Shown one piece after another: positions 8,258 through 18,434 of a DNA stretch of 26,061 nt. Within the stretch, counting starts at the first letter, position 1, and each line of letters begins with the position of its first letter. The position numbers and the translations under genes were made by a program. Source of the stretch: Promethearchaeota archaeon (GTDB lineage: Archaea; Asgardarchaeota; Thorarchaeia; Thorarchaeales; Thorarchaeaceae). The notes beneath the pieces were generated by a model. That model was not told where the DNA came from and searched no databases. It saw nothing but the letters and a program-made list of their open reading frames with translations. Location: NCBI GenBank assembly GCA_027031765.1, contig JALVPN010000190.1, positions 1-26,061 of the forward strand. Direction: 5' to 3'.

Positions 8258-8878
8258 ATGACGCATGACGAGCTCCAGGATTTGTGGAAACGGGAAGTAC
8301 TGTCTAGTGACCTCCAGGATCTAGATGACACAACTCTTTCTAGGGCTGTCCAGTTCGTTTCAGCCATACGTGTTGCAGTCGCGGATGCCGACCCGTCTGA
8401 CACCCTCACGAAGCGTGTCTTGGAACAAGAGGCGCTTGTATCAGAGTCTATATTGCGCGACCTCCTTGAGCTGCGCCAGATTAAGATTCTCAGGGCTGCT
8501 CTTTCAGGGCAGCAGCCTAGCGGTCAGATGATTCTGGCTGAGGAGGAACTACATGCTCGCGTTTCGCGTGCCATTGCTAGTCATCAAGACTTCATGTCCG
8601 ACTGCACCGAAGGTGGGCCGCAGGCTGTCATCGCGCGCCCGGAAGCACATGGGGACGCCACAGGAAGTCCGACAACTGAAAATGACGGGAAGATGAGTTA
8701 TCTACTTGTCCGGTTTCTCAAGGATGTTGATACCCCCGTTGTGGGTTTGGACGGTCTGACGTATGGCCCATTCAGAGAGAACGATATTGCAACAATCCCC
8801 TTGGCAAATGCACGCGTCTGGCTCAGGGACCGCACTGTCGCAAGGGTCGATATCCGTTGGCTTGAAAGAGGTGAGTGA
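8258..8878 (+). CDS. GINS15/Gins51 subunit
   Basis: Helical A-domain (ILRDLLELRQIKIL) and B-domain VRFLKDV..VGLDGLTYGPF.ENDIATIPLANA; directly follows priS. Confidence 0.88.
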   Translation: MTHDELQDLWKREVLSSDLQDLDDTTLSRAVQFVSAIRVAVADADPSDTLTKRVLEQEALVSESILRDLLELRQIKILRAALSGQQPSGQMILAEEELHARVSRAIASHQDFMSDCTEGGPQAVIARPEAHGDATGSPTTENDGKMSYLLVRFLKDVDTPVVGLDGLTYGPFRENDIATIPLANARVWLRDRTVARVDIRWLERGE

Positions 8879-8879
8879 G

Positions 8880-9176
8880 ATGGCCTCGCCACATGAGGAG
8901 CTTGCAAGTGTCATGAGGTTCGTTGAGGATTACTGGAGGGGACTGGACGCGGAGCTCAAGCGTCTTGAGGTGCTCCTGTCAACGGTCTTCCGTCTCACGA
9001 GTGGCCAAGGCCCCGCGACACTCGAAAAGTTGGTTGGTGACCCCCACCAGATGAAACAACAGGTCATCACAGCTGCTGCTAGGATTAGACAGGATACTAA
9101 GCTGTATCACGCCCGGCTGAGGTCGCGTCTCGAACGTCTCCATGACCAACTACTGTCGGTCGAGGGAAAACGCTAA
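8880..9176 (+). CDS. Hypothetical alpha-helical/coiled-coil protein (98 aa)
   Basis: ATG 1 bp after the gins15 stop, with GAGGTGAG SD; amphipathic helices. Confidence 0.7.
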   Translation: MASPHEELASVMRFVEDYWRGLDAELKRLEVLLSTVFRLTSGQGPATLEKLVGDPHQMKQQVITAAARIRQDTKLYHARLRSRLERLHDQLLSVEGKR

Positions 9177-9430: not shown

Positions 9431-9440
9431 CTCTCTTTTT
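9431..9440 (+). terminator. Pyrimidine/T-tract, possible terminator of the pcn-priS-gins unit
   Basis: CTCTCTTTTT about 20 bp after the last stop; archaeal terminators are oligo-T tracts. Confidence 0.35.
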
Positions 9441-9450
9441 GTCCCCTCTG

Positions 9451-9463
9451 GAAACTTTTAATA
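9451..9463 (+). promoter_or_regulatory. Putative BRE-TATA of the hdr operon
   Basis: GAAAC followed by TTTTAATA, about 65 bp upstream of the hdrC ATG. Confidence 0.55.
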
Positions 9464-9528
9464 TTCGCCTGGGGTCGGTCCTCGCACCTATCGACTGTCC
9501 GGGATTATGCCCGTGGTGGTGTACTCTT

Positions 9529-10071
9529 ATGTCAGAAGCTGGAGAACACAGTACCACCCCAGTCACACTCGTAGACCCCATCGACATCTCCACTCTGGAT
9601 CCGCACTTCCGGAATGAGATCCGTAGTATGCCAAATGGTGACGACCTCTATGCGTGTTTTGCATGCACCACCTGCACGGCGGCATGTCCAATTGCATGCC
9701 AGTGGACATACAAGCCCCACCAGCTCATCCGTATGATTCTACTTGGCATGCGCAACGAGGTGCTGTCAAGCAAGGAAATCTGGGAGTGCCTTACATGTTT
9801 TCAGTGTCAGGAACGCTGCCCGCAGGGCGTCCGGGTCACAGACATCATCTTTGACTGCAAGAACCTTGCTGCTGAGGAAGGCCTAGTCCCAGAAAATATA
9901 CTGGGCCTTGGGCGTCAGCTCCTCGAGTCCGGTCAACTGTATCAGGTCACAGCCGACTGGGAACGGGAGGATTTGGGGCTTGAGCCTGAAGTCCCTGGCC
10001 TTGACCCTGAGCCTATGAAGGCAATCCTACACGGCACCCGAACTGGTCGACTTGTTGGGGGTGGTGACTAG
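9529..10071 (+). CDS. hdrC: Heterodisulfide reductase subunit C
   Basis: CFACTTCTAACP and CLTCFQCQERCPQGV ferredoxin motifs; PHQLIRMILLG; adjacent to hdrB. Confidence 0.92.
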   Translation: MSEAGEHSTTPVTLVDPIDISTLDPHFRNEIRSMPNGDDLYACFACTTCTAACPIACQWTYKPHQLIRMILLGMRNEVLSSKEIWECLTCFQCQERCPQGVRVTDIIFDCKNLAAEEGLVPENILGLGRQLLESGQLYQVTADWEREDLGLEPEVPGLDPEPMKAILHGTRTGRLVGGGD

Positions 10072-10072
10072 G

Positions 10073-10939
10073 ATGCCGACGTATAACCTGTACATGGGCT
10101 GCAGTGTCCCGGCGAATTACCCCAACTATGAGATCTCAATGCTCAAGGTTGCTGAAGCGCTTGGGATTGACCTAGTGTACATGGAGGGGGTGGGCTGTTG
10201 TGGGAGCCCAAACCTCCGTGCAATCGACTACTTCGGCTGGTTGCTAGTAAACGCACGTACACTTGCTATTGCAGAGAAATCGGGGCATGACGTTGTCACC
10301 CCGTGCAATGGGTGCTTCGGCTCGTTGAAGGACGTCCATCACTTTCTACTGCATAACTCGGAGTACCGGACGCGTGTGAACGAGGAGCTCAACTCTGAGG
10401 GCCTTGAGTTCACAGGTCGAGTACGTCCGCGTCACTTTATCGAGGTCCTGTACACTGATATCGGGATTGATGCAATCCGCGAGAAGGTGACCCGTCCACT
10501 TGACGGTGTCGGTATCGCCATCCACTATGGGTGCCACCTCCTCCGCCCCGCTGATGTGACCGAGTTCGACCCGGCCATTCTTGACGAGCTTGTCCGCGTG
10601 ACCGGCGCGACCGTTGTTGAGTACCCGCTCTGGAAGCAGTGTTGTGGTGCCACGGTGCTGCCTGTCAACGAAGCACTTGCAGTCCGACTGGCACGTGACA
10701 AGCTGAAATCAATCAAAGAGGCCGGCGCATCCTTCATCACGGTCGTCTGTCCAGCCTGCGGTAACCAGCTCGACCTGCAACAGCTGGGCCTCAAGACCTC
10801 ATACGGCGAGGTGTACGACTTGCCAGTACTGCTGTACCCACAGATACTGGCACTTGCGATGGGGATGAGTGAAGATGAGATTGGGCTTGAGATGAACCGA
10901 GTCCCTGCACAGCCCATCCTTGAGCATCTCACTGGCTGA
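10073..10939 (+). CDS. hdrB: Heterodisulfide reductase subunit B (CCG family)
   Basis: Two intact CCG domains: MGC...CCGSP...PCNGC and HYGCH...CCGAT...CPAC; also QLDLQQ and PQILALAMG. Confidence 0.93.
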   Translation: MPTYNLYMGCSVPANYPNYEISMLKVAEALGIDLVYMEGVGCCGSPNLRAIDYFGWLLVNARTLAIAEKSGHDVVTPCNGCFGSLKDVHHFLLHNSEYRTRVNEELNSEGLEFTGRVRPRHFIEVLYTDIGIDAIREKVTRPLDGVGIAIHYGCHLLRPADVTEFDPAILDELVRVTGATVVEYPLWKQCCGATVLPVNEALAVRLARDKLKSIKEAGASFITVVCPACGNQLDLQQLGLKTSYGEVYDLPVLLYPQILALAMGMSEDEIGLEMNRVPAQPILEHLTG

Positions 10940-10950
10940 GGTGGACTGAG

Positions 10951-12201
10951 ATGGTCGGCCCTGTTCTGATAGTGGGGGCGGGGGTCGCCGGGATGACGGC
11001 GGCTGTTGAACTTGCTGACGCAGGAGTCCACACAGTCCTTGTAGAACGTCTCTCTACTGTGGGCGGCAATGCCCTCCGACTATACAAGGCCTTCCCAACA
11101 GATGACTGCTTCTTCTGTTTCGAGGGAAACCGGTGGCGCCCCGGAATCCGCAAGTGCTTCTACAGGAGCGCACTGACCGACCAGCCCAATATCGACCTGC
11201 GGGTCAACACCACTGTTGTCGATATTTCAGGAACCCCCGGCTCCTTCACAGTCCGTCTGCGCACAGAACCGACCTATGTCGACCCAAAGAAGTGCATCCT
11301 ATGCGGCCTGTGTACCACTCGTTCTGAGGCCTTCAAGTTGAGCTCGCCCCAGTGCCAGCCCCAGACTGTTTCGGTAGACCCGACACTGCTGGACGACGAG
11401 GCACGCAGGGTCGCATCTGAGTGCCCGACGCATGCCATTGACTTGGACGCGACGCCTTCTGAGGACACACTAGTGGTATCAGACATTGTGATTGCCACGG
11501 GATACCATGAGTTCAAGCCCCAAGGTGTGCAGGAGTACGGCTATGGGGAGCACCCGAATATTATCACACAACTGGAGTTGGCCGAGATGCTCGACCCCAC
11601 TGGGCCGTCCGGGGGTGTCCTCCTGCGTCCATCCGATGGCGCCCCTGTGGAGCGGGTCATGATGGTTCAGTGCGTCGGTAGCCGTAGCGTGGACCATTTC
11701 CCCTTCTGCTCCAAGATATGTTGTGTCTTCGCACTGAAGCATGCTAACATAATCGCGCAGGAGCACAATGGGATCCGTGTGGATGTGGTCTACATGGATA
11801 TCCGCACCTACGACCGTCACGAGCGGTACTACCGCATGGCACGTAGGGCTGGTGTTGGCTTTATCCGTGGCAGGGTCTCCCGTGTAGTCCCACGCGATGA
11901 TGGTCGGCTGGATGTGGTCATTTACGACTCCCTCCTAGACCAGTATCTTCAGTACGAAGTCGACCTCTTTGTACTCTCATCCGCTCTGGAGCCGTCCGAG
12001 GGGACTGCTGCCCTCATATCACAACTCGGCCTACAGGACCGAAGCGGTTTTGTCGCCCCTGTTGAGGACGGGTCTGTTGATGGTGTGATGGCGGGAGATC
12101 ACGTATTCGTGTGTGGGACAGCCCTTGGGCCCGCCGAGGTGCCAGAGAGTGTTACACAGGCAAGAGCAGTAGTAAGTAGAATCCTTCAAGGTGGGGTGTA
12201 A
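10951..12201 (+). CDS. hdrA: Short HdrA-family flavoprotein (QmoA-like size, 416 aa)
   Basis: Starts directly with Rossmann GAGVAG; has FPTDDCFFC, VIATG and QCVGSR..FCSKICC. No N-terminal Cys domain and no C-terminal ferredoxin. Confidence 0.88.
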   Translation: MVGPVLIVGAGVAGMTAAVELADAGVHTVLVERLSTVGGNALRLYKAFPTDDCFFCFEGNRWRPGIRKCFYRSALTDQPNIDLRVNTTVVDISGTPGSFTVRLRTEPTYVDPKKCILCGLCTTRSEAFKLSSPQCQPQTVSVDPTLLDDEARRVASECPTHAIDLDATPSEDTLVVSDIVIATGYHEFKPQGVQEYGYGEHPNIITQLELAEMLDPTGPSGGVLLRPSDGAPVERVMMVQCVGSRSVDHFPFCSKICCVFALKHANIIAQEHNGIRVDVVYMDIRTYDRHERYYRMARRAGVGFIRGRVSRVVPRDDGRLDVVIYDSLLDQYLQYEVDLFVLSSALEPSEGTAALISQLGLQDRSGFVAPVEDGSVDGVMAGDHVFVCGTALGPAEVPESVTQARAVVSRILQGGV

Positions 12202-12205
12202 GAAG

Positions 12206-14362
12206 ATGGCCGAGAAGTCTGCTGTATTGCTGTGCACGTGCGGTGGTCAGCTCAACTTGGACTACGAAGCCCTTGTAGACCGGCTTGGCGAGATGGAGTT
12301 GGCAGGGCATGTCGAAGTGCATGACCTTGTCTGCCAGCCTGATGGCCTTGATGTTGTCAAGCGCCTCCTTGCTGAGCATGGCCGGCTTGTCATTGCGGCG
12401 TGCACGTCCCAGAAACTGAAGCCACGGGTCGATATGGCCCTCCAACATGATGGCGTGACAGCCCCACTCATCACCTACGTCAACATCCGTGAACAACTGG
12501 CTTGGGTTCACAAGCCGTCTCCGGAGGCGACCGAAAAGGCTCTCGACACAGTCCATGGTGCCATCTCTCTGTCCGCCCTTGCAGAGCCCCCTTCCGTTGT
12601 ATGCAAGGATCTGCCACGTCACGTTACTATCATCGGTGCCGGAATTGCAGGCCTTGAGTGCGCTGTCAACCTCTCCCGCCTTGGCTACTCCGTGGCCCTG
12701 CTGGAGCGCTCGGACGAAGTGGGCGGTCATCTCCGCAGGCTCCCTGTGATAGCACCCACCGGGCGTTCTGGCCCTGAAGTCCTCGGGCCACGTATTGATG
12801 CTGTGATGTCCAGTGACCGGATTGACGTCATGCTTGGTGTAGATGTCAAGTTTGTCGAGGGAGAGGTGGGATCCTTCAAAGTCCACTATACGGCAGATGG
12901 TTCCCAGGAGGATGGCGTAATCGAAACATCAGCTGTAGTCCTCGCAATGGGCTTCAAAGAGTTCAAACCCACCATGATGGACGAATACGGGTATGGACGG
13001 AACCCCGATGTGATAACGCAGTACGAGCTGTCCACCATGTTGTCCGAGGGCCGTCTGGAACGTCCATCTGACGGTGGTTCCGTGAAAGAAGTAGTGATGG
13101 TGCAGTGCGTGGGCAGCAGATCTGAACAGTTCAAGCGTGACTGCAGCAAGCTCTGCTGCACCTTCGCTATTGACAATGCCCTTGAGCTACTGGAACGTGA
13201 CCCTGCCATTCGCGTTCATATAGTATACATGGACATCCGGGTTCCCTTTGAGAATGAGGCTGTCTACCGCGAGTCCCGAGAAAAGGGGGTCGACTACATC
13301 AGGGGCCGTGTGTGTTCAGTATGGCAGTCTGGCAACAACACATACCTCCGACTGTATGACTCGCTCATGGATCAGTACTTCCAGTTGTCCCCGGACTTGG
13401 TGGTGCTCTCATCTGCACTACTGCCCCCTGATGGTGTGGAAGAGCTGGCTGAAACACTGGGCTATGCTGTCGAGTATGACGGTCACGTGAAGGAACTGTA
13501 CGGAAAGCTCCGACGGGTCGAAACACGTCGCCGTGGTGTGTTTGCCATCGGAGCTGTGACGGGCCCCCAGTTCGTTTCGGAGGCAATCACTGATGCACAG
13601 GCTGCTGCTCTCCTCGTGCACGCCGAGCTCCAAGGTGGCCGTATTGAAACAGTGCCACGTGGTGCTGTACTCGACTTGGACTCCTGTGTGGGCTGCAGTC
13701 TATGCGCCCAGCACTGTCCACGTGGTGTACCACTGATGATTGAGCAGGACGGGGGAGCCGACGAGACCGAGAAAATCCAGTTCAAGGCCGCCATAGACAT
13801 CCTGAACTGTCATGCATGTGGTGTATGCCAGAGCCTATGCCCCTCCGGTGCAACGGAGTTGAACTTCCTGACCAACGAACAGTTATGGGCACAGACTAAG
13901 GGCGCACTGTCCCATGCAGGACGTGACCGCCCTGTGACCCTGTGCTTCTATTGTGAGGAGTGCGCAGCCTCGACAATTGACATTGCTGGTACACTCCATA
14001 TGGAGTATCCCGCAAGCACTCGCCTAATACCGGTCCCCTGCGCGGGGCGCGTTTCAGCAATCGACATCTTGCGGGCCTTCGAATACGGCGCAGCCACCGT
14101 GATGATTGCGTCATGCGAAAAGAACCGTTGTCATATGGGTGGTACAGGGAACGAGATTGCACAGGCGCAAGTCGATGTAACAAAGGAAATCCTGTCTGCA
14201 ATCGGGTGGGACTCAAGACGCGTGGAGATGTACCGGATGTTCAGTGCGGAGCCTGAGCGTTTCAGGTCTGCCATAGCCGAGATGGTTGAACGTGCACATG
14301 ACCTTGGCCCAACACCTGTGCACTTGGGCACGGCTGGTCAGTGGAAGGAGGTCGTTTCATGA
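12206..14362 (+). CDS. hdrA: Long HdrA-family flavoprotein fused to ferredoxin and MvhD (QmoB-like architecture, 718 aa)
   Basis: N-terminal LLCTCG, GAGIAG, QCVGSR..CSKLCC, CVGCSLCAQHCP and CHACGVCQSLCP, then an MvhD domain (CFYCEEC, VPCAGRV, SCEKNRCH). Confidence 0.9.
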   Translation: MAEKSAVLLCTCGGQLNLDYEALVDRLGEMELAGHVEVHDLVCQPDGLDVVKRLLAEHGRLVIAACTSQKLKPRVDMALQHDGVTAPLITYVNIREQLAWVHKPSPEATEKALDTVHGAISLSALAEPPSVVCKDLPRHVTIIGAGIAGLECAVNLSRLGYSVALLERSDEVGGHLRRLPVIAPTGRSGPEVLGPRIDAVMSSDRIDVMLGVDVKFVEGEVGSFKVHYTADGSQEDGVIETSAVVLAMGFKEFKPTMMDEYGYGRNPDVITQYELSTMLSEGRLERPSDGGSVKEVVMVQCVGSRSEQFKRDCSKLCCTFAIDNALELLERDPAIRVHIVYMDIRVPFENEAVYRESREKGVDYIRGRVCSVWQSGNNTYLRLYDSLMDQYFQLSPDLVVLSSALLPPDGVEELAETLGYAVEYDGHVKELYGKLRRVETRRRGVFAIGAVTGPQFVSEAITDAQAAALLVHAELQGGRIETVPRGAVLDLDSCVGCSLCAQHCPRGVPLMIEQDGGADETEKIQFKAAIDILNCHACGVCQSLCPSGATELNFLTNEQLWAQTKGALSHAGRDRPVTLCFYCEECAASTIDIAGTLHMEYPASTRLIPVPCAGRVSAIDILRAFEYGAATVMIASCEKNRCHMGGTGNEIAQAQVDVTKEILSAIGWDSRRVEMYRMFSAEPERFRSAIAEMVERAHDLGPTPVHLGTAGQWKEVVS

Positions 14363-16656
14363 ACGGGAGGCACAAGACACAGTCACTCCCACCAAAGCGG
14401 CAGCGCATGCTTGAGATGATTCTGGCTCTGGGTGGTCTGAAGGAGGCTGAGGCCATCCCCCCAGGTAAGGTCTCCGAGGCCCTGGAACAACTGCGCCGAG
14501 AACTGGTGCCCCTCCTTGAACCGGTACTCTCGTTTCCCGACCAGTACTACACTGAGTTCTTGGATGTGATTGAGCGGACTGCCATCCTCGACCAGGTGAC
14601 GGATGAATCAATCGTCCGTGACGCCATCTCCAGTATCGAGAGTGTTGCTCTAGACGACAGGTCTGAAGATGTCGGCCGGCTCTTGTCCCTCCTGCAAAGT
14701 GCTCTCTCCGAGTCGGTGCATGAGGGGCCCACCTCGCCAACGGAGCGGGCCCCTAACATTGTCGGCGCCCTACAGGAAATCGCTGTGCTGGTCGACGAGA
14801 TTGCGGGTGCGGTGTCCAACTTTGAAGAGGCCGCCCGTCACACTGCCCAAGAAGCTGCTGCAAGCCTGGGCTCTCTCGTGTCTTCCTTTGAAGAGATACG
14901 GTCTGTGGTGGATGAGAGTGCTGCGTCTGCTCTCGAACGGATTGCAAAACTCGGGACGTCCCTACGCTATGGGCCACTGATGCGTGCAGTTGCCCAGATC
15001 AGACGTGCCCATGCTGATGGTCGCATTGATGATGCACGCCTGTCACAACTGGTCTCGCAGAACATAGTCCACGAGCTGATTCGGGGGCTGATACTGTTTG
15101 TCCTGCGTCAAATCGGCCCGCAGACGGTTGTCAGGATTGCTGAACTCCTGCACTTGCCACCCGCAGAAGTACAGGGGGCAATCGTCAGCATGATTGACCG
15201 TGCTGAGGTCGAGATTGTTGCGGTTGAGGACTCATCACCTGTGTTCTCAAGAGTGCTGCCCCGTACGCCCGCCTCTACGGTGATACTCAAACAGGCTGTC
15301 CAGCAGCTCCGTGGTGCGGTCAAGCTGTTTGACGACGACACACGTCAAATGATTGACGACGACACACGTCAAATGATTGACGACTCACTGCAACGCATGA
15401 CCGCTCTCTTGGAGAGGCTCCAGCTCCTAGGAGAGTTTGACGAGTCGGTGCTCTCAGAATCTGTAACACGTCTACGTGAGCTGGTCTCCTCAGTCCTCGA
15501 GAGCGCATTGAAGCAGGCATCATCCCAGAACATGGAAGACCTCCAACTCCTTATTGCAGCGGGGCTGGAGGCATTTGCCCGGTTCCGCCTCAAGATTGCG
15601 CTCGAAAAGGGCCCCTCCCTCGTCACGGGCACAAACGTGTATGGCGAACGGCTGGATCCCCAAGTATACGAGCGACTGATGGACACCTATCTTGAGAACG
15701 AGCTCGAACGTGGCACTATCCTGGTTCTGATTAGGAAGCTGGGGGCAATGACTGCAGCAGACCTTGCCCAGCGTACCGGAATCCCTCAAGACCGCGTGTT
15801 CCGACACCTGCTGCAGATGAAGCGGGCCGAGCTCCTCACTATCGCAGGTGAACGCGACGGCTATGTGCTCTACGATGTGCCACACGTGCCCAGCGAGGTC
15901 GAGATTGCACTTGGGACGGTGTGTGGTCTGATTCCGGAACTAGAACGGGCGAGTCATGAAGTGAAGCAGATTGTAGACAATCTACGGGCTGAGGATATCG
16001 GCCGTCTCGCATCTGCACTGGATGTCTTCTCCCGCGCATGTGACCATCTCAAGAAAGTCACAATCGGAGGTACCGTAGTCGGCGAGAGTATTCTGACAGC
16101 CGTAGAACCGAAGGTGCGGAGTGCAGTGGGAATAACACTGAGGACACGCGCCAAGCTCCCGACCACCCGCCCCAAGGTTACAGTTGACGAACTTGACGCC
16201 GTTGATGTCCCCTCCGTGTTGGACGAGTACAAGTCGATGATGGGATACGCCCCTCTCGTAGGGTTCGGCACGGTCAACTGGGATCAGTCCAAGTGCCTCG
16301 GCTGCAAGTCCTGTGAAATTGCGTGCCCTGAGGACGCAATCTATCTGAGGCCTGTGTTCGACATCGACAAGGTGATTGTCATGTCCGAAGAACAGCTCGC
16401 ACGCCTCCCAGTCCAGCGTGCACTGTTCTATCAGCTAATCCGCAAACTGGCGGCAACGCGCCCTTCCGAACCCATTACACTACAGAATGACATCCCCGGC
16501 ATTGGCCATGTCCAAGTCGACCTGCACCTCTGCATTGGGTGTAGGACCTGTGTCAGACGTTGCCCGGGCCCAGAGGATGGCGCGCTCGAACTGGAGCTCA
16601 AGTGGACTCTTCCTGAGGTCGTCCGCCAGCTCACAGCTCTCTCCCCTACAGAATGA
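14359..16656 (+). CDS. Uncharacterised 765-aa protein: helical regions, two winged-HTH modules and a C-terminal 2x[4Fe-4S] ferredoxin
   Basis: ATGA overlap with the hdrA-mvhD stop. HTH-like segments at about 15073-15252 and 15700-15876; CLGCKSCEIACP and CIGCRTCVRRCP. Confidence 0.85.
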   Translation: MNGRHKTQSLPPKRQRMLEMILALGGLKEAEAIPPGKVSEALEQLRRELVPLLEPVLSFPDQYYTEFLDVIERTAILDQVTDESIVRDAISSIESVALDDRSEDVGRLLSLLQSALSESVHEGPTSPTERAPNIVGALQEIAVLVDEIAGAVSNFEEAARHTAQEAAASLGSLVSSFEEIRSVVDESAASALERIAKLGTSLRYGPLMRAVAQIRRAHADGRIDDARLSQLVSQNIVHELIRGLILFVLRQIGPQTVVRIAELLHLPPAEVQGAIVSMIDRAEVEIVAVEDSSPVFSRVLPRTPASTVILKQAVQQLRGAVKLFDDDTRQMIDDDTRQMIDDSLQRMTALLERLQLLGEFDESVLSESVTRLRELVSSVLESALKQASSQNMEDLQLLIAAGLEAFARFRLKIALEKGPSLVTGTNVYGERLDPQVYERLMDTYLENELERGTILVLIRKLGAMTAADLAQRTGIPQDRVFRHLLQMKRAELLTIAGERDGYVLYDVPHVPSEVEIALGTVCGLIPELERASHEVKQIVDNLRAEDIGRLASALDVFSRACDHLKKVTIGGTVVGESILTAVEPKVRSAVGITLRTRAKLPTTRPKVTVDELDAVDVPSVLDEYKSMMGYAPLVGFGTVNWDQSKCLGCKSCEIACPEDAIYLRPVFDIDKVIVMSEEQLARLPVQRALFYQLIRKLAATRPSEPITLQNDIPGIGHVQVDLHLCIGCRTCVRRCPGPEDGALELELKWTLPEVVRQLTALSPTE
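15331..15384 (+). repeat. Perfect 24-bp tandem duplication (DDDTRQMI x2)
   Basis: GACGACGACACACGTCAAATGATT at 15331-15354 and 15355-15378, plus a partial third copy GACGAC. Confidence 0.95.
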
Positions 16657-16661
16657 GGGGC

Positions 16662-16669
16662 TTTTTATA
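16662..16669 (+). promoter_or_regulatory. TTTTTATA: TATA for a leaderless downstream ORF and/or T-tract terminator of the hdr operon
   Basis: Lies 5 bp after the stop at 16656 and about 25 bp before ATG 16693. Confidence 0.45.
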
Positions 16670-16692
16670 GAGGTGTGACGACACGCACAGGT

Positions 16693-16995
16693 ATGCAAGA
16701 CGTAGAGGTAGAAGAGGGCGATCCCCGTAAGAAGCTGAGCGAACTGGGCGCTAACTTTTCCAGTGCAGTTCGCGACCAGTTTGTCCACCTCGCTGTTTCG
16801 GCCCTGCGGTGGGGCAAGATTGATATCACTGGATGGTCCGAGGAGCCACTGCGGCTGCTCCTGTCAATCAGTCATGACCAAGAAATGATTCTCTCAGTCA
16901 AGAATGGCGACCGGGAAATGACCGTCATGAAGCCTTCTCCAGGCCCCATGCTTGAGTGGCTGGTTCACGACCTACTCCGTTCCTCCTCTGGATAG
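16693..16995 (+). CDS. Hypothetical protein (about 100 aa)
   Basis: Protein-like composition and TATA at leaderless distance; alternative GTG start at 16675. Confidence 0.65.
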   Translation: MQDVEVEEGDPRKKLSELGANFSSAVRDQFVHLAVSALRWGKIDITGWSEEPLRLLLSISHDQEMILSVKNGDREMTVMKPSPGPMLEWLVHDLLRSSSG

Positions 16996-17225
16996 TTCCT
17001 GTTGCTACCACCGGCCTCCACATATTCCCTGTTCGCCTAGGCCACCGACATACACAGCACTATGCTGGGCTGCATGACAACATTGTGGCTACAGATTACA
17101 CACCCAGACTTCATGCCAGCAGTTTCTCGTTCACACCACCCGGCCGGCCCCCCGCAAGTCTCTACGGTTCGCAGTCCGAAACGCTACATTTATCTTGCTT
17201 AACGATAGTGAAGTACGTGAGGAAA

Positions 17226-18434
17226 ATGAACGAGGAAACCAAGCAGATTGTCAAGCAGGCAATCATCCGGCTCCACAGTGGCGAAGACCCATCAGTAATA
17301 CGGGCTGAGTACGGAGAGGTCCTCCGTCGTACAAGCCCTCATGAGATTGCACGAATCGAGGAGGAGCTCATCCGCGAAGGCATGACACGAGAGCAGGTAC
17401 GTGAACTGTGTGATGTCCACCTTGCAGTGTTCCAAGAGGCCCTGCACCAATCATCGACCCGTGCTCCTCCTGGACATCCTGTCCACACACTAATGTCCGA
17501 GCACGACACGCTGTTAGAGCTCGCAAATGAACTGCGTGGACTGAGCAGTTCTCTGGTCAAGGGGCGAACTGATATTCAGTCCGGCCTGAAACGACTACGG
17601 GAGATTGTAGTCCTCCTAAAGGCCTCGACATCCCACTACCTCCGTGAAGAGAATGCCCTCTTCCCCTTCCTGGAGAAACACGGTGTGAGCCAACCGCCTG
17701 CAATCATGTGGATGGAACATGACAAAATCCGCGAAACTGAGAAGCATCTGTTCGGACTCGTCGATGACAGTGATGAGCAGCTGGTCGCAAACATGCCTCT
17801 GATAGCAGAGTCCTCTCTCGCTCTCAGTGAGATGCTGGCCAGCCACTTCTTCAAAGAGAACTCGATACTCTTTCCGACTGCCATGCGTCTAATCAGACAG
17901 GATGAGTGGAGTGTTATCGGTGATGAGTTCAACTCGATTGGCTTCTGTCCGTTCACCCCCGACTCGGCACAGAGCGGCACAGCAGGGGTGGAGCAGGAGA
18001 GGGGACAGGAACAGGTGCAGGGATCAACTGGTGATGAGATTGAATTTGACACGGGTAGCATGAGCAGAGAGGTTGTCGAGGCGATTTTCAACACACTGCC
18101 CGTTGACCTCACATTCGTAGACGCCGGCGACCGCGTCAGGTTCTTCAGCGACTCTGGTGGCCGAATATTTGTCCGCTCCAAAGCAGTCCTCGGTCGTGAA
18201 GTCCGGAGGTGCCATCCCCCAAAGAGCATCGATGTTGTGGACAGGATTCTGGACGACTTCAGGACTGGGCGTAGGGACTCTGCTGAGTTCTGGATTCGTT
18301 TACATGGGCGCTTGATATACATCCGGTACCTTGCACTCCGCGACAAGAGTGGCCAGTACCTTGGGTGCTTGGAGGTCACGCAAGATGTCACTGACATCCA
18401 GCAACTACAGGGCGAGAAACGTCTGCTCGACTGA
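17226..18434 (+). CDS. DUF438 / hemerythrin-like / PAS domain protein
   Basis: IIRLHSGED..EI..IEEELI..G...LCDVH (DUF438); HPVHTLMSEH, HYLREENALFP, MEHD and KENSILFP (hemerythrin); LPVDLTFVD..CHPPKS (PAS). GTGAGG SD before ATG 17226. Confidence 0.92.
   Translation: MNEETKQIVKQAIIRLHSGEDPSVIRAEYGEVLRRTSPHEIARIEEELIREGMTREQVRELCDVHLAVFQEALHQSSTRAPPGHPVHTLMSEHDTLLELANELRGLSSSLVKGRTDIQSGLKRLREIVVLLKASTSHYLREENALFPFLEKHGVSQPPAIMWMEHDKIRETEKHLFGLVDDSDEQLVANMPLIAESSLALSEMLASHFFKENSILFPTAMRLIRQDEWSVIGDEFNSIGFCPFTPDSAQSGTAGVEQERGQEQVQGSTGDEIEFDTGSMSREVVEAIFNTLPVDLTFVDAGDRVRFFSDSGGRIFVRSKAVLGREVRRCHPPKSIDVVDRILDDFRTGRRDSAEFWIRLHGRLIYIRYLALRDKSGQYLGCLEVTQDVTDIQQLQGEKRLLD

What the first reader, a model, noticed from the sequence alone, without database searches (positions are those of the whole stretch)
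14359..16656. 765-aa double-wHTH plus ferredoxin protein translationally coupled to an HdrA-MvhD fusion
Seen: an ATGA overlap with hdrA-mvhD, and an internal duplication ELxRGxILxxxRxxGxxT (about aa 239 and 448), each copy followed by an HTH-like segment and a beta wing. Long helical spacers separate the modules, and a C-terminal CxxCxxCxxxCP pair is split by a roughly 65-aa insert. Recalled but not searched: the second module (AFARFRLK..TNVYGE..) resembles the HTH tail of some extended MvhD proteins. Inference: this may be an undescribed Hdr-associated subunit that couples Fe-S redox state or electron flow to DNA binding (a redox-sensing regulator inside the complex), or a scaffold and electron-entry module occupying the place of the usual MvhAG/Fdh/Flx partner.
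Basis: partly seen in the sequence, partly recalled or inferred. Interest (0 to 1): 0.78.

Follow-up and report, generated by a model that had tools for sequence, protein, structure and literature searches.

The report
Asgard Hdr iron-sulfur adaptor subunit
This 765-residue protein is a real, conserved but uncharacterised iron-sulfur subunit of the heterodisulfide-reductase-type (Hdr) energy enzyme of Asgard archaea. Its two DNA-binding-like winged helices most likely dock protein partners rather than regulate genes.

Summary
The ORF at 14359-16656 overlaps hdrA-mvhD by ATGA. It has two related winged-helix (wH) modules, long helices and two intact CxxCxxCxxxCP motifs 68 residues apart.

It is not an orphan. 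Full-length relatives occur in 84 of 85 genomes of the window's own family (Thorarchaeota by NCBI names) and, at 21-29% identity, in Hel- and Lokiarchaeota. They almost always sit directly after HdrA-MvhD, even where hdrCB has moved.

The second wH module belongs to an uncurated family. Elsewhere that family is the tail of long MvhD proteins or a small gene right after mvhD, in front of the electron-donor genes. One example lies on another contig of this genome.

In some Thorarchaeota the wH1 region is replaced by a GltD-type NAD(P)H flavoprotein. A co-fold puts the ferredoxin domain on the MvhD and C-terminal ferredoxin part of HdrA (score 0.87, best control 0.00).

Best reading: an electron-entry/adaptor subunit. 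A redox-sensing DNA-binding regulator is unlikely, because wH1 and both wings are acidic.

The scan reached the same reading before on homologues in other genomes. No paper in the held library describes the protein.

The parts
14359..16656 (+). Gene X: 765-aa Hdr-operon wH/ferredoxin subunit (P0001)
   Evidence: The frame is open. Full-length homologues have E down to 1e-252. The gene is single-copy in the genome.
14359..14362 (+). ATGA start/stop overlap with hdrA-mvhD; GGAGG lies 7 nt upstream, at 14347-14351
   Evidence: Sequence read. The same 4-nt overlap occurs in L001, L003 and L005.
14359..14796 (+). N-terminal conserved helices (aa 1-146), retained in the 972-aa GltD variant
   Evidence: BLASTP aligns X 8-146 with P0122 8-141. 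The model predicts helices here that pack with the 513-600 hairpin, but overall model confidence is low.
14797..15633 (+). Variable 'head' (aa 147-425): acidic helices, a basic stretch at 196-236, wH1 and further helices. In some Thorarchaeota it is replaced by a GltD-type NAD(P)H flavoprotein.
15031..15258 (+). Winged helix 1 (aa 225-300)
   Evidence: Pfam AlkZ-like wH hit at 173-296. VIA-align Z 9.0, rmsd 1.1 A to 4kmf_A. Module profile E 5.8e-13. Recognition helix and wing are acidic.
15329..15384 (+). Perfect 24-nt tandem duplication (2.3 copies) giving DDDTRQMI twice. It is an 8-aa insertion specific to this genome, in a helix-linker of the head.
   Evidence: TRF score 112, 100% matches. 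The insertion is absent from the 17 aligned homologues.
15541..15888 (+). Hdr/MvhD-associated wH module (aa 395-510): the FRLK helix, the NVYGE(K/R)LDP loop and an ArsR-like wHTH. It is the most conserved part of X.
   Evidence: ArsR/HlyU E 3.6e-6. VIA-align Z 11-12. Module profile E 1.4e-40.
15889..16158 (+). Helical hairpin (aa 511-600)
   Evidence: AF2 pLDDT is about 85-93 here.
16201..16653 (+). 2x[4Fe-4S] ferredoxin domain with a roughly 68-aa insert (aa 615-765). Cys motifs are encoded at 16294-16329 and 16531-16566. This is the predicted contact surface with MvhD and the C-terminal ferredoxin of HdrA.
   Evidence: Pfam Fer4 families. Eight invariant Cys. The fold matches PFOR delta at Z 10.0 and PsaC at Z 9.9. 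The co-fold interface is X 647-655, 667-673, 683-715 and 729-740.
12191..14362 (+). hdrA-mvhD fusion (QmoB-like long HdrA), the predicted binding partner of X
   Evidence: Pfam FlpD at 584-706, Fer4 at 493-554; NCBIfam HdrA2 E 1e-135.
10951..12201 (+). Short HdrA (QmoA-like, 416 aa)
   Evidence: NCBIfam HdrA/HdrA2 over positions 142-556.
9439..10939 (+). hdrC (probable ATG at 9530) and hdrB, the first genes of the operon; a TATA-like TTTTAATAT lies near 9455
16662..16669 (+). T5 run and TTTATA directly after the stop codon of X: the probable operon end, and possibly the promoter of the next gene
   Evidence: Sequence read. The function is inferred only.

Best explanation
X is a stoichiometric iron-sulfur subunit of a soluble complex made of a QmoA/QmoB-like HdrA pair plus HdrBC. 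It stands where other Hdr systems carry their electron-donor module (MvhAG, Fdh, FrhB, Flx).

How it most likely works:
1. The C-terminal 2x[4Fe-4S] ferredoxin domain uses its conserved ~68-residue insert as a clamp. It sits on the MvhD domain and the C-terminal ferredoxin domain of the long HdrA. This extends the electron wire: X clusters to MvhD [2Fe-2S] / HdrA ferredoxin clusters to the HdrA flavin.
2. The N-terminal helices and the 513-600 hairpin form a helical core.
3. The wH2 module is the same module that is fused to, or encoded right after, MvhD elsewhere. It acts as a protein-docking element at the MvhD/donor junction.
4. The central 'head' (aa 147-425, with wH1) is the exchangeable input part. 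In some Thorarchaeota it is replaced by an NAD(P)H-oxidising GltD-type flavoprotein.

In the canonical form found in this window the physiological donor or acceptor is unknown. It could be soluble ferredoxin or a recruited dehydrogenase.

Shown: the domain make-up, the conservation and the gene linkage. Supported by a model only: the contact with MvhD/HdrA. Inferred: the direction of electron flow, the role of the wH domains and the partner.
For: 1. Linkage. In the 58 same-family genomes where both list coordinates, the end of HdrA-MvhD and the start of X lie on one strand 20-70 nt apart, or on abutting contig ends, in 57. The Hel/Lokiarchaeota homologues (21-29% identity; names) still follow HdrA-MvhD although hdrCB has moved downstream.

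2. Restricted, collinear family. A profile of aa 1-612 finds only 75 proteins at E<=1e-3 among 1.84 billion representatives. The long ones are all ~735-760-aa collinear relatives or the 972-aa variant.

3. Natural domain swap. P0122 (972 aa) sits at the same locus. It keeps X 8-146 and 426-760 (54% identity) and carries Fer4_20 + Pyr_redox_2 in between. That insert matches the NAD(P)-binding GltD family at E 1.7e-133.

4. The wH2 module is Hdr-specific. It occurs in four other arrangements:
- as the tail of 256-aa MvhD proteins (L027, L028);
- as a 121-aa gene between mvhD and frhB (L029);
- as a 122-aa gene after hdrB (L028);
- as a 77/78-aa gene between mvhD and mvhG, on contig C115 of this very genome and in other Thorarchaeota.
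In L027, L029, L069 and L070 it follows the order [short HdrA][long HdrA][MvhD]; the L028 copy follows hdrB, and L063 is cut before the short HdrA.

5. Co-fold of HdrA-MvhD 480-723 with X 380-765. ipSAE is 0.87 in three runs and the best of 3 controls is 0.00. That mark was reached by 58 of 80 solved complexes and by 2 of 110 mismatched pairs. The runs share at least 73% of contacts, and partner pLDDT is at least 62. The interface is the ferredoxin domain of X and its insert against the HdrA ferredoxin motifs and MvhD.

6. All eight cluster cysteines are invariant.

7. Precedent. In the cryo-EM structure of class II benzoyl-CoA reductase, the wHTH of the long MvhD adaptor BamF contacts the donor-side subunit BamI (bioRxiv 10.64898/2026.04.10.717634).

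8. Charge. The wH1 helix and wing and the wH2 wing are acidic. The mini-wH has an aromatic 'recognition' helix and an acidic wing.
Against: - No biochemical or expression data exist for any member.
- The co-fold is a model. Solved Mvh/Fdh-Hdr complexes contain MvhD next to Fe-S donor subunits, so the pass may partly reflect likeness to them. It also used my own alignments.
- Predicted interface residues of X are not more conserved than the rest of the ferredoxin domain (1087 of 5000 random samples were as conserved).
- wH2 was not in the confident interface, so its partner is unknown.
- The wH2 recognition helix keeps conserved basic residues (R479, H483, K488, R489), and its nearest solved relatives by sequence are ArsR-type DNA binders.
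- X evolves faster than its partner: about 50% identity to family members against 70-76% for the HdrA-MvhD tail.
- In one genome (G325) an unrelated gene separates hdrA-mvhD and X, so translational coupling is not obligatory.
- Homology of wH2 to the BamF wHTH itself was not tested.
Confidence: 0.7

Rival explanations
1. X is a redox-sensing transcription regulator. Its ferredoxin clusters report the redox state of the Hdr complex or of the ferredoxin pool. Its wHTH domains bind DNA, for example the hdr promoter, and so adjust expression.
For: Both wH modules have the canonical fold, and wH2 is closest by sequence to ArsR/HlyU repressors (E 3.6e-6; Z 11-12). Pfam MarR_2/HTH_5 pass or approach their cut-offs at 454-495. 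R479, H483, K488 and R489 on the wH2 recognition helix are invariant. A basic stretch at 196-236 carries +4 to +8.
Against: - X has been an operon-internal, translationally coupled 750-aa protein since before the Thor/Hel/Loki split. That is the pattern of an enzyme subunit, not of a regulator.
- The wH1 helix and wing and the wH2 wing are acidic.
- The same module is fused to MvhD or wedged between mvhD and donor genes.
- A variant swaps wH1 for an NAD(P)H flavoprotein.
- The BamF wHTH is a protein interface.
- The protein as a whole is strongly acidic.
Confidence: 0.07
2. X is a loosely associated, dedicated ferredoxin-like carrier or an assembly/maturation factor. It meets HdrA-MvhD only transiently and is not part of the mature enzyme.
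For: X evolves faster than HdrA-MvhD: about 50% against 70-76% identity. Interface residues are not specially conserved. G325 tolerates an inserted gene between the two. Much of X is modelled with low inter-domain confidence (pTM 0.40).
Against: The start/stop overlap in nearly all genomes points to equimolar synthesis. The co-fold score is high with zero controls. The GltD variant makes sense only if X is wired into the complex. At 765 aa with a conserved helical core, X is far larger than a diffusible carrier needs to be.
Confidence: 0.15
3. X is a degenerate relative of multi-winged-helix transcription factors with Fe-S domains (RPC62/RPC39- or TFE-beta-like). It lies next to hdr genes by chance or through inherited synteny.
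For: Foldseek's top match for the full-length model is human RPC62 (E 3.7e-3). Pfam HTH_9 (RPC82) gives weak hits in two distant homologues, P0130 at 1.4e-5 and P0138 at 1.8e-3. The operon lies beside replication and transcription genes (tfs, PCNA, primase, GINS) in Thorarchaeota.
Against: TM-scores are 0.08-0.14 with rmsd around 30 A. The Fe-S domain is a standard two-cluster ferredoxin, not the single-cluster TFE-beta/RPC39 type (established knowledge; motifs). Linkage to HdrA-MvhD survives in Hel/Lokiarchaeota, where the flanking genes differ.
Confidence: 0.02

Closest known systems
Long MvhD adaptors: Asgard 256-aa MvhD with a wH tail (uncurated), and BamF of class II benzoyl-CoA reductase (Geobacter metallireducens; bioRxiv 10.64898/2026.04.10.717634)
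   Same: They carry the same wH module as X aa 395-510: an FRLR helix, NVYGEKL and an ArsR-like wHTH (profile E 1e-7 to 1e-8). The module sits at the junction of MvhD and the donor module. In BamF the wHTH is a protein-protein interface with the donor-side subunit BamI.
   Different: X has no MvhD/FlpD domain of its own; that domain is on the preceding HdrA-MvhD fusion. X adds a second wH, about 400 residues of helices and a two-cluster ferredoxin. Sequence homology between wH2 and the BamF wHTH was not tested, because no BamF sequence was at hand and BamF is not in the PDB copy.
Electron-input modules that dock on MvhD: MvhAG hydrogenase (5ODC), FdhAB (7BKB), FrhB, FlxABC
   Same: X occupies the same operon position, after MvhD, and has the same predicted contact partner. 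Its Fe-S clusters are placed to hand electrons to MvhD and the HdrA ferredoxin domain. The GltD-carrying variant is a complete NAD(P)H input module.
   Different: Canonical X has no catalytic site: no hydrogenase, molybdopterin, flavin or F420 domain was detected. It is therefore a relay or adaptor, not a dehydrogenase.
HdrL / GltD(NfnB)-containing HdrA proteins of Desulfobacterota and ANME (known from genome analyses; cited from my own knowledge and from earlier scan notes)
   Same: In both, an NAD(P)H-binding GltD-type module is wired to an HdrA/MvhD system. The 972-aa variant of X is functionally analogous.
   Different: In HdrL the GltD module is inserted into HdrA itself. Here it is inserted into a separate subunit that keeps the helical core, wH2 and ferredoxin of X.
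ArsR/SmtB- and MarR-type winged-helix repressors (e.g. HlyU 3JTH, SmtB 1R1T)
   Same: The fold of wH1 and wH2 is the same (Z 9-12, rmsd 1-2.5 A). The wH2 profile matches HlyU at E 3.6e-6.
   Different: Those are small dimeric stand-alone DNA binders with basic helix and wing. Here the wH domains are embedded in a 765-aa acidic Fe-S protein. The wings are acidic, the wH1 helix is neutral to acidic, and the genomic behaviour is that of an enzyme subunit.
QmoABC of sulfate reducers, and qmoAB-hdrCB clusters of Gram-positive sulfate reducers (established knowledge)
   Same: Both have a short HdrA (QmoA-like, 416 aa), a long HdrA with a C-terminal MvhD (QmoB-like, 723 aa) and HdrC/B-type subunits.
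   Different: No Apr or Sat genes lie nearby. An X-like subunit is not known from Qmo systems, and none was found outside Asgard archaea in 1.84 billion representative proteins.

Membership tests
Asgard Hdr-operon wH/ferredoxin subunit (uncurated family; NCBI names it '4Fe-4S dicluster domain-containing protein') | Full-length collinear homology over about 735-765 aa | tested here: met
   50-53% identity over 97-100% of the length to more than 100 proteins. The profile covers positions 8-597 of the distant members.
Asgard Hdr-operon wH/ferredoxin subunit (uncurated family; NCBI names it '4Fe-4S dicluster domain-containing protein') | Gene lies directly downstream of an HdrA-MvhD fusion | tested here: met
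   ATGA overlap in the window. 57 of 58 family genomes. The Hel/Loki loci L020, L024 and L030.
Asgard Hdr-operon wH/ferredoxin subunit (uncurated family; NCBI names it '4Fe-4S dicluster domain-containing protein') | Two CxxCxxCxxxCP motifs separated by a conserved insert | tested here: met
   C646-P657 and C725-P736. All eight Cys plus L683, P684, P702, G714 and G716 of the insert are invariant in 40 sequences.
Two-cluster bacterial-type ferredoxin domain (Pfam Fer4 clan) | Eight Cys in two CxxCxxCxxxCP motifs and the ferredoxin fold | tested here: met
   Fer4_6 at 1.5e-11, Fer4 at 5e-11 and Fer4_7 at 4.6e-9, all above their cut-offs. Fold matches to PFOR delta 9bt4_H (Z 10.0) and PsaC 8jjr_c (Z 9.9). 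Cluster binding itself cannot be tested here.
ArsR/MarR-type DNA-binding transcription regulators | Winged helix-turn-helix fold | tested here: met
   wH2 at Z 11-12 and wH1 at Z 8-9, with rmsd 0.9-2.5 A. MarR_2 scores 28.3 bits against a cut-off of 27.
ArsR/MarR-type DNA-binding transcription regulators | Positively charged recognition helix and wing | tested here: not met
   The wH1 helix is -2 (family median 0) and its wing is -2. The wH2 helix is +2 but its wing is -2 (family median -1). The result is by sequence only; no surface calculation was possible.
ArsR/MarR-type DNA-binding transcription regulators | Sequence-specific DNA binding | not testable with these tools
   Needs EMSA or ChIP.
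Long MvhD / BamF-type adaptors | MvhD (FlpD, PF02662) [2Fe-2S] domain | tested here: not met
   X has no FlpD hit. The domain is on the preceding HdrA-MvhD protein, at aa 584-706.
Long MvhD / BamF-type adaptors | C-terminal wH extension homologous to X wH2 | tested here: met
   Asgard MvhD-wH proteins P0148 and P0155 and the L027/L028 256-aa proteins match profile positions 376-491. Homology to the BamF wHTH itself was not tested.
Subunits bound to MvhD / HdrA C-terminal ferredoxin domain | Physical contact with HdrA-MvhD | tested here: inconclusive
   The co-fold supports binding but does not show it: score 0.87, best of 3 controls 0.00, and a mark reached by 58 of 80 solved complexes and 2 of 110 mismatched pairs. 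The runs agree in at least 73% of contacts and partner pLDDT is at least 62. Likeness to solved Mvh/Fdh-Hdr complexes may contribute.
RPC62/RPC82-like multi-wH transcription factors | Overall structural similarity | tested here: inconclusive
   Foldseek E 3.7e-3, TM 0.08-0.14, rmsd about 30 A. One wH matches 2xub_A at Z 9.9.

The most novel reading that the evidence does not exclude
X is bifunctional. While wired into the Hdr complex through its ferredoxin domain, wH2 keeps a basic recognition helix with invariant R479, H483, K488 and R489. It binds nucleic acid in a redox-dependent way. The electron-bifurcating enzyme would then itself report the redox state of the cell to the hdr promoter, or to an RNA. 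That would be an enzyme-embedded Fe-S transcription factor in the archaeal lineage closest to eukaryotes.
Probability: 0.07. Interest if true: 0.85.

Novelty: new variant of a known kind. Interest (0 to 1): 0.55.

Why it matters
Hdr-type flavin-based electron-bifurcating complexes are central to the energy metabolism proposed for Asgard archaea, and so to syntrophy models of eukaryogenesis. What feeds electrons into the hydrogenase-less Asgard Hdr operons is unknown.

This protein is the conserved fifth subunit of that operon in almost every Thorarchaeota genome searched, and in Hel- and Lokiarchaeota. It therefore marks the place where the unknown donor or acceptor plugs in. The GltD-swapped variant gives a directly testable case: an NADPH-dependent Hdr.

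The analysis also defines an uncurated winged-helix module that accompanies MvhD in five different architectures. The module probably helps decide which donor module an HdrA/MvhD core accepts.

Annotation pipelines call these proteins 'ferredoxin/MarR family transcriptional regulator'. That label is probably misleading.

Tried and rejected
- Pairwise BLASTP of wH1 against wH2 found no similarity (E 34). Only profiles show the relation.
- The full-length AF2 model is poor (pLDDT 65, pTM 0.40). Foldseek against the PDB gave nothing at E<=1e-3 for either model. The helical parts give only generic four-helix-bundle matches at Z about 10, below the level that is meaningful for helical proteins.
- A profile of aa 1-612 against PDB sequences gave only chance-level helical hits, the best at E 0.0066.
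- Long MvhD against PDB sequences matched only short MvhD chains of 129-141 aa. No BamF or long-MvhD structure is held.
The module's range outside Asgard, and its homology to the BamF wHTH, therefore stay untested.
- The word-based search with the MvhD tail found only close Lokiarchaeota relatives. Cluster names gave no taxonomy for the small module proteins.
- ESM Atlas by features scored 0.76 or less, so it gave no lead.
- Sequencing runs: no RNA holder is listed. One hydrothermal-vent metagenome DNA run holds the stretch and is probably the source sample.
- Conservation of predicted interface residues against the rest of the ferredoxin domain showed no enrichment (1087 of 5000).
- Acyl-CoA dehydrogenase as the donor was considered, because ACAD plus a cupin follow X in most Thorarchaeota. 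It was set aside. ACAD is absent here (the next genes are a 100-aa ORF and a DUF438-hemerythrin-PAS protein) and at the Hel/Loki loci. The acyl-CoA/enoyl-CoA couple is also too positive to drive disulfide plus ferredoxin reduction (established thermodynamics).
- Literature searches found no paper in the held library that describes this protein.

Full report
**1. What is there**

Window 14359-16656 (+) is an uninterrupted 765-codon frame. Its ATG overlaps the TGA of the preceding hdrA-mvhD gene (ATGA, 14359-14362), and GGAGG lies 7 nt upstream.

The gene is the last of five tightly packed genes:
- hdrC: 9439/9530-10071
- hdrB: 10052-10939
- short QmoA-like HdrA, 416 aa: 10951-12201
- long QmoB-like HdrA fused to MvhD, 723 aa: 12191-14362
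- X: 14359-16656

Directly after the stop codon of X come a T5 run and TTTATA (16662-16669). X therefore probably ends the transcription unit.

Pfam finds two Fer4 motifs (C646-P657, C725-P736), MarR_2/HTH_5-type hits at 454-495 and an AlkZ-like winged-helix hit at 173-296. NCBIfam has no full-length model for the protein.

**2. The observation**

The two 'ELxRGxILxxxRxxGxxT' segments do not align by BLASTP, but their family profiles do: hhalign 91-93%, E about 1e-6.

I built a profile of the Hdr-associated winged-helix module (A6). It includes wH2 sequences but no wH1 sequences. Searched against the whole 2.95-Mb genome, it ranks wH2 first (E 1.4e-40), wH1 second (5.8e-13) and a 77-aa protein third (1e-9). 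All ordinary wHTH proteins of the genome score 2e-4 or worse. An old internal duplication is therefore the best reading.

Both segments model as winged helices: Z 9.0 for wH1 and 12.1 for wH2, at rmsd 1.1 and 1.3 A to a Zalpha domain.

A perfect 24-nt tandem duplication (15329-15384) adds DDDTRQMI once more. It is private to this genome.

**3. Family and linkage**

X has more than 100 full-length relatives at 50-53% identity. NCBI and JGI name them '4Fe-4S dicluster domain-containing protein' or 'ferredoxin/MarR family regulator'. They come from Thorarchaeota and from MAGs labelled Promethearchaeota, Hod- or Sifarchaeia.

In representative genomes, 84 of 85 members of the window's own family have it. 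Families f17-f19 carry collinear ~745-aa relatives at 21-23% identity over aa 1-612. NCBI names those relatives Hel- and Lokiarchaeota.

A profile of aa 1-612 finds only 75 proteins at E<=1e-3 among 1.84 billion cluster representatives. The family is therefore narrow and Asgard-specific as far as these data go.

I compared the coordinates. In 57 of 58 family genomes, X starts 20-70 nt after the matched end of HdrA-MvhD on the same strand, or on an abutting contig end. The exception is G325. There a 523-aa protein made of many HTH repeats is encoded on the opposite strand between the two genes, and X is intact.

In Helarchaeota the order is short HdrA, HdrA-MvhD, X, hdrC, hdrB. hdrCB has moved but X has stayed with MvhD. 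This is the signature of a subunit.

**4. The second winged helix is an Hdr-specific module**

The small proteins hit by the profile match only positions ~380-500. That stretch is an amphipathic 'FRLR' helix, a GNVYGEKL loop and an ArsR-like wHTH ending in PLY. The module occurs in these settings:
- As the C-terminal tail of 256-270-aa MvhD proteins (L027 and L028; Lokiarchaeota by name).
- As a 121-aa gene overlapping the end of mvhD and preceding frhB (L029).
- As a 122-aa gene after hdrB (L028).
- In shortened form, as a 77/78-aa gene between mvhD and mvhG.

The last arrangement is found on contig C115 of this very genome: HdrA, MvhD, mini-wH, MvhG, MvhA. Two other MAGs have it too, one labelled Thorarchaeota and one Odinarchaeota. 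There the full order is HdrL-like, hdrC, hdrB, short HdrA, long HdrA, mvhD, mini-wH, mvhG, mvhA. The mini-wH family aligns to the module profile at hhalign 97%, E 4e-11.

At most of these loci the order is [short HdrA][long HdrA][MvhD][wH][donor genes]; the 122-aa gene of L028 instead follows hdrB.

The 'recognition helix' of the mini-wH is DLVVWNLMGMLRWG and its wing is GEE.HE. That is not a DNA-binding surface.

**5. A natural domain swap**

In at least seven genomes of the family (G317, G318, G341, G347-349, G352) the gene at the same position encodes a ~972-aa protein (P0122). It keeps X 8-146 and X 426-760, the latter at 54% identity. In place of aa 147-425 it carries Fer4_20 + Pyr_redox_2. 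That insert is a complete GltD/NfnB-type NAD(P)H oxidoreductase (NCBIfam E 1.7e-133).

The constant parts are therefore the N-terminal helices, wH2, the hairpin and the ferredoxin. The head containing wH1 is exchangeable for an NAD(P)H input module. In the low-confidence full-length model, the N-terminal helices and the 513-600 hairpin pack together, which would explain this. I regard that point as inference.

**6. Contact with HdrA-MvhD**

I co-folded the HdrA-MvhD tail (aa 480-723, alignment of 33 sequences) with X 380-765 (alignment of 40). The result:
- ipSAE 0.87 in each of three runs, and 0.00 for the best of three controls.
- That mark was reached by 58 of 80 solved complexes and by 2 of 110 mismatched pairs.
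- The runs share at least 73% of contacts, and partner pLDDT is at least 62.

On X the confident interface is 647-655, 667-673, 683-715 and 729-740. These are the two cluster motifs and the insert between them. On the partner it is 498-508, 525-531 and 549-553 (C-terminal ferredoxin motifs) plus 623-631, 656-673 and 709-718 (MvhD).

Caveats:
- This is a model.
- I used my own alignments.
- Solved Mvh- and Fdh-Hdr complexes place Fe-S donor subunits on MvhD, so the pass may partly reflect that likeness.
- The interface residues are not more conserved than the rest of the domain.
- wH2 was not in the confident interface, so its partner remains open.

**7. DNA binding?**

By sequence, the wH1 recognition helix (-2; family median 0) and wing (-2) are acidic. 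The wH2 helix is +2 with invariant R479/H483/K488/R489, but its wing is acidic. The whole protein is strongly acidic, except for a basic stretch at 196-236.

The nearest solved relatives of wH2 are ArsR/HlyU repressors (E 3.6e-6). DNA binding therefore cannot be excluded.

One structural precedent exists for a wHTH on a long MvhD adaptor: BamF in the cryo-EM structure of class II benzoyl-CoA reductase. There the wHTH 'interfaces with BamI', linking the donor module to the HdrA-like core (bioRxiv 10.64898/2026.04.10.717634). I could not test whether the BamF wHTH is homologous to this module.

**8. Verdict**

X is best explained as an Asgard-specific Fe-S adaptor or electron-entry subunit of a QmoAB-like HdrABC/MvhD complex (confidence 0.7). 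The rivals are:
- a transient carrier or assembly factor (0.15)
- a redox-sensing DNA-binding regulator (0.07)
- an RPC62/TFE-like factor (0.02)

The physiological donor of the canonical form is unknown.

No paper in the held library describes the protein.

Earlier follow-ups in this scan reached the same reading on homologues in other genomes. I arrived at the linkage, the MvhD-tail homology, the GltD variant and the BamF precedent from my own calls before reading those notes.

- the mini-wH between mvhD and mvhG on another contig of the same genome
- the genome-wide ranking of wH1 by the module profile
- the controlled co-fold
- the G325 exception

Noticed in passing
G000 contig C115 = L063:1024-3201: The same genome carries a second Hdr cluster: HdrA, MvhD (148 aa), a 77-aa winged-helix mini-protein, MvhG and MvhA ([NiFe] hydrogenase). 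The 77/78-aa family was found in 38 proteins at E<=1e-3, mostly from Thorarchaeota-labelled MAGs. At the three loci examined it sits between mvhD and mvhG (with a 4-nt overlap with mvhD in L069 and L070), and it has no Pfam family.
   Followed up: yes
window 15329-15384: A perfect 24-nt tandem duplication (2.3 copies) inside X adds an 8-aa DDDTRQMI repeat that the 17 aligned homologues lack. It looks like a recent slippage event in a linker between helices.
   Followed up: partly
window 16675-18434: In most Thorarchaeota, X is followed by acyl-CoA dehydrogenase plus a cupin. Here it is followed by a 100-106-aa ORF with no family (16675/16693-16995) and a 492-aa DUF438 + hemerythrin + PAS_10 protein (16956-18434). 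The latter is a likely O2/NO/iron-sensing protein whose first ~100 residues match nothing. The two frames overlap by 40 nt.
   Followed up: no
L071 (G325:C492:17000-25500), 3072-4643 minus strand: This is the one family genome in which hdrA-mvhD and X are not adjacent. A 523-aa protein built of many HTH repeats (Sigma70_r4/HTH_38/HTH_18 hits) is inserted between them on the opposite strand. X and the downstream ACAD are intact.
   Followed up: partly
window 5963-9176; L001, L003, L005: The hdr operon is embedded in a conserved replication/transcription neighbourhood (TFS-like Zn ribbon, a Ten1/RPA3-like ORF, PCNA, primase PriS, GINS51 and a small ORF). This neighbourhood is syntenic in the three relatives examined (L001, L003, L005/L006), so part of the local synteny reflects shared ancestry rather than function.
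   Followed up: no
L020 1-3487; L024 1-3642; L027 3494-6955; L028 6994-10005: The Hel-/Lokiarchaeota loci carry additional 1000-1150-aa double-HdrA (HdrA-HdrA-MvhD) fusions. L020 and L024 also show tiny 48-57-aa gene calls with FlpD hits, which may be split, selenocysteine-containing or mis-called mvhD genes.
   Followed up: no
G378:C151:6306-8084 and G391:C52:105-3284: Here X-like matches lie in open frames of 1161 and 1114 aa. These may be further insertion or fusion variants beyond the 972-aa GltD form.
   Followed up: no
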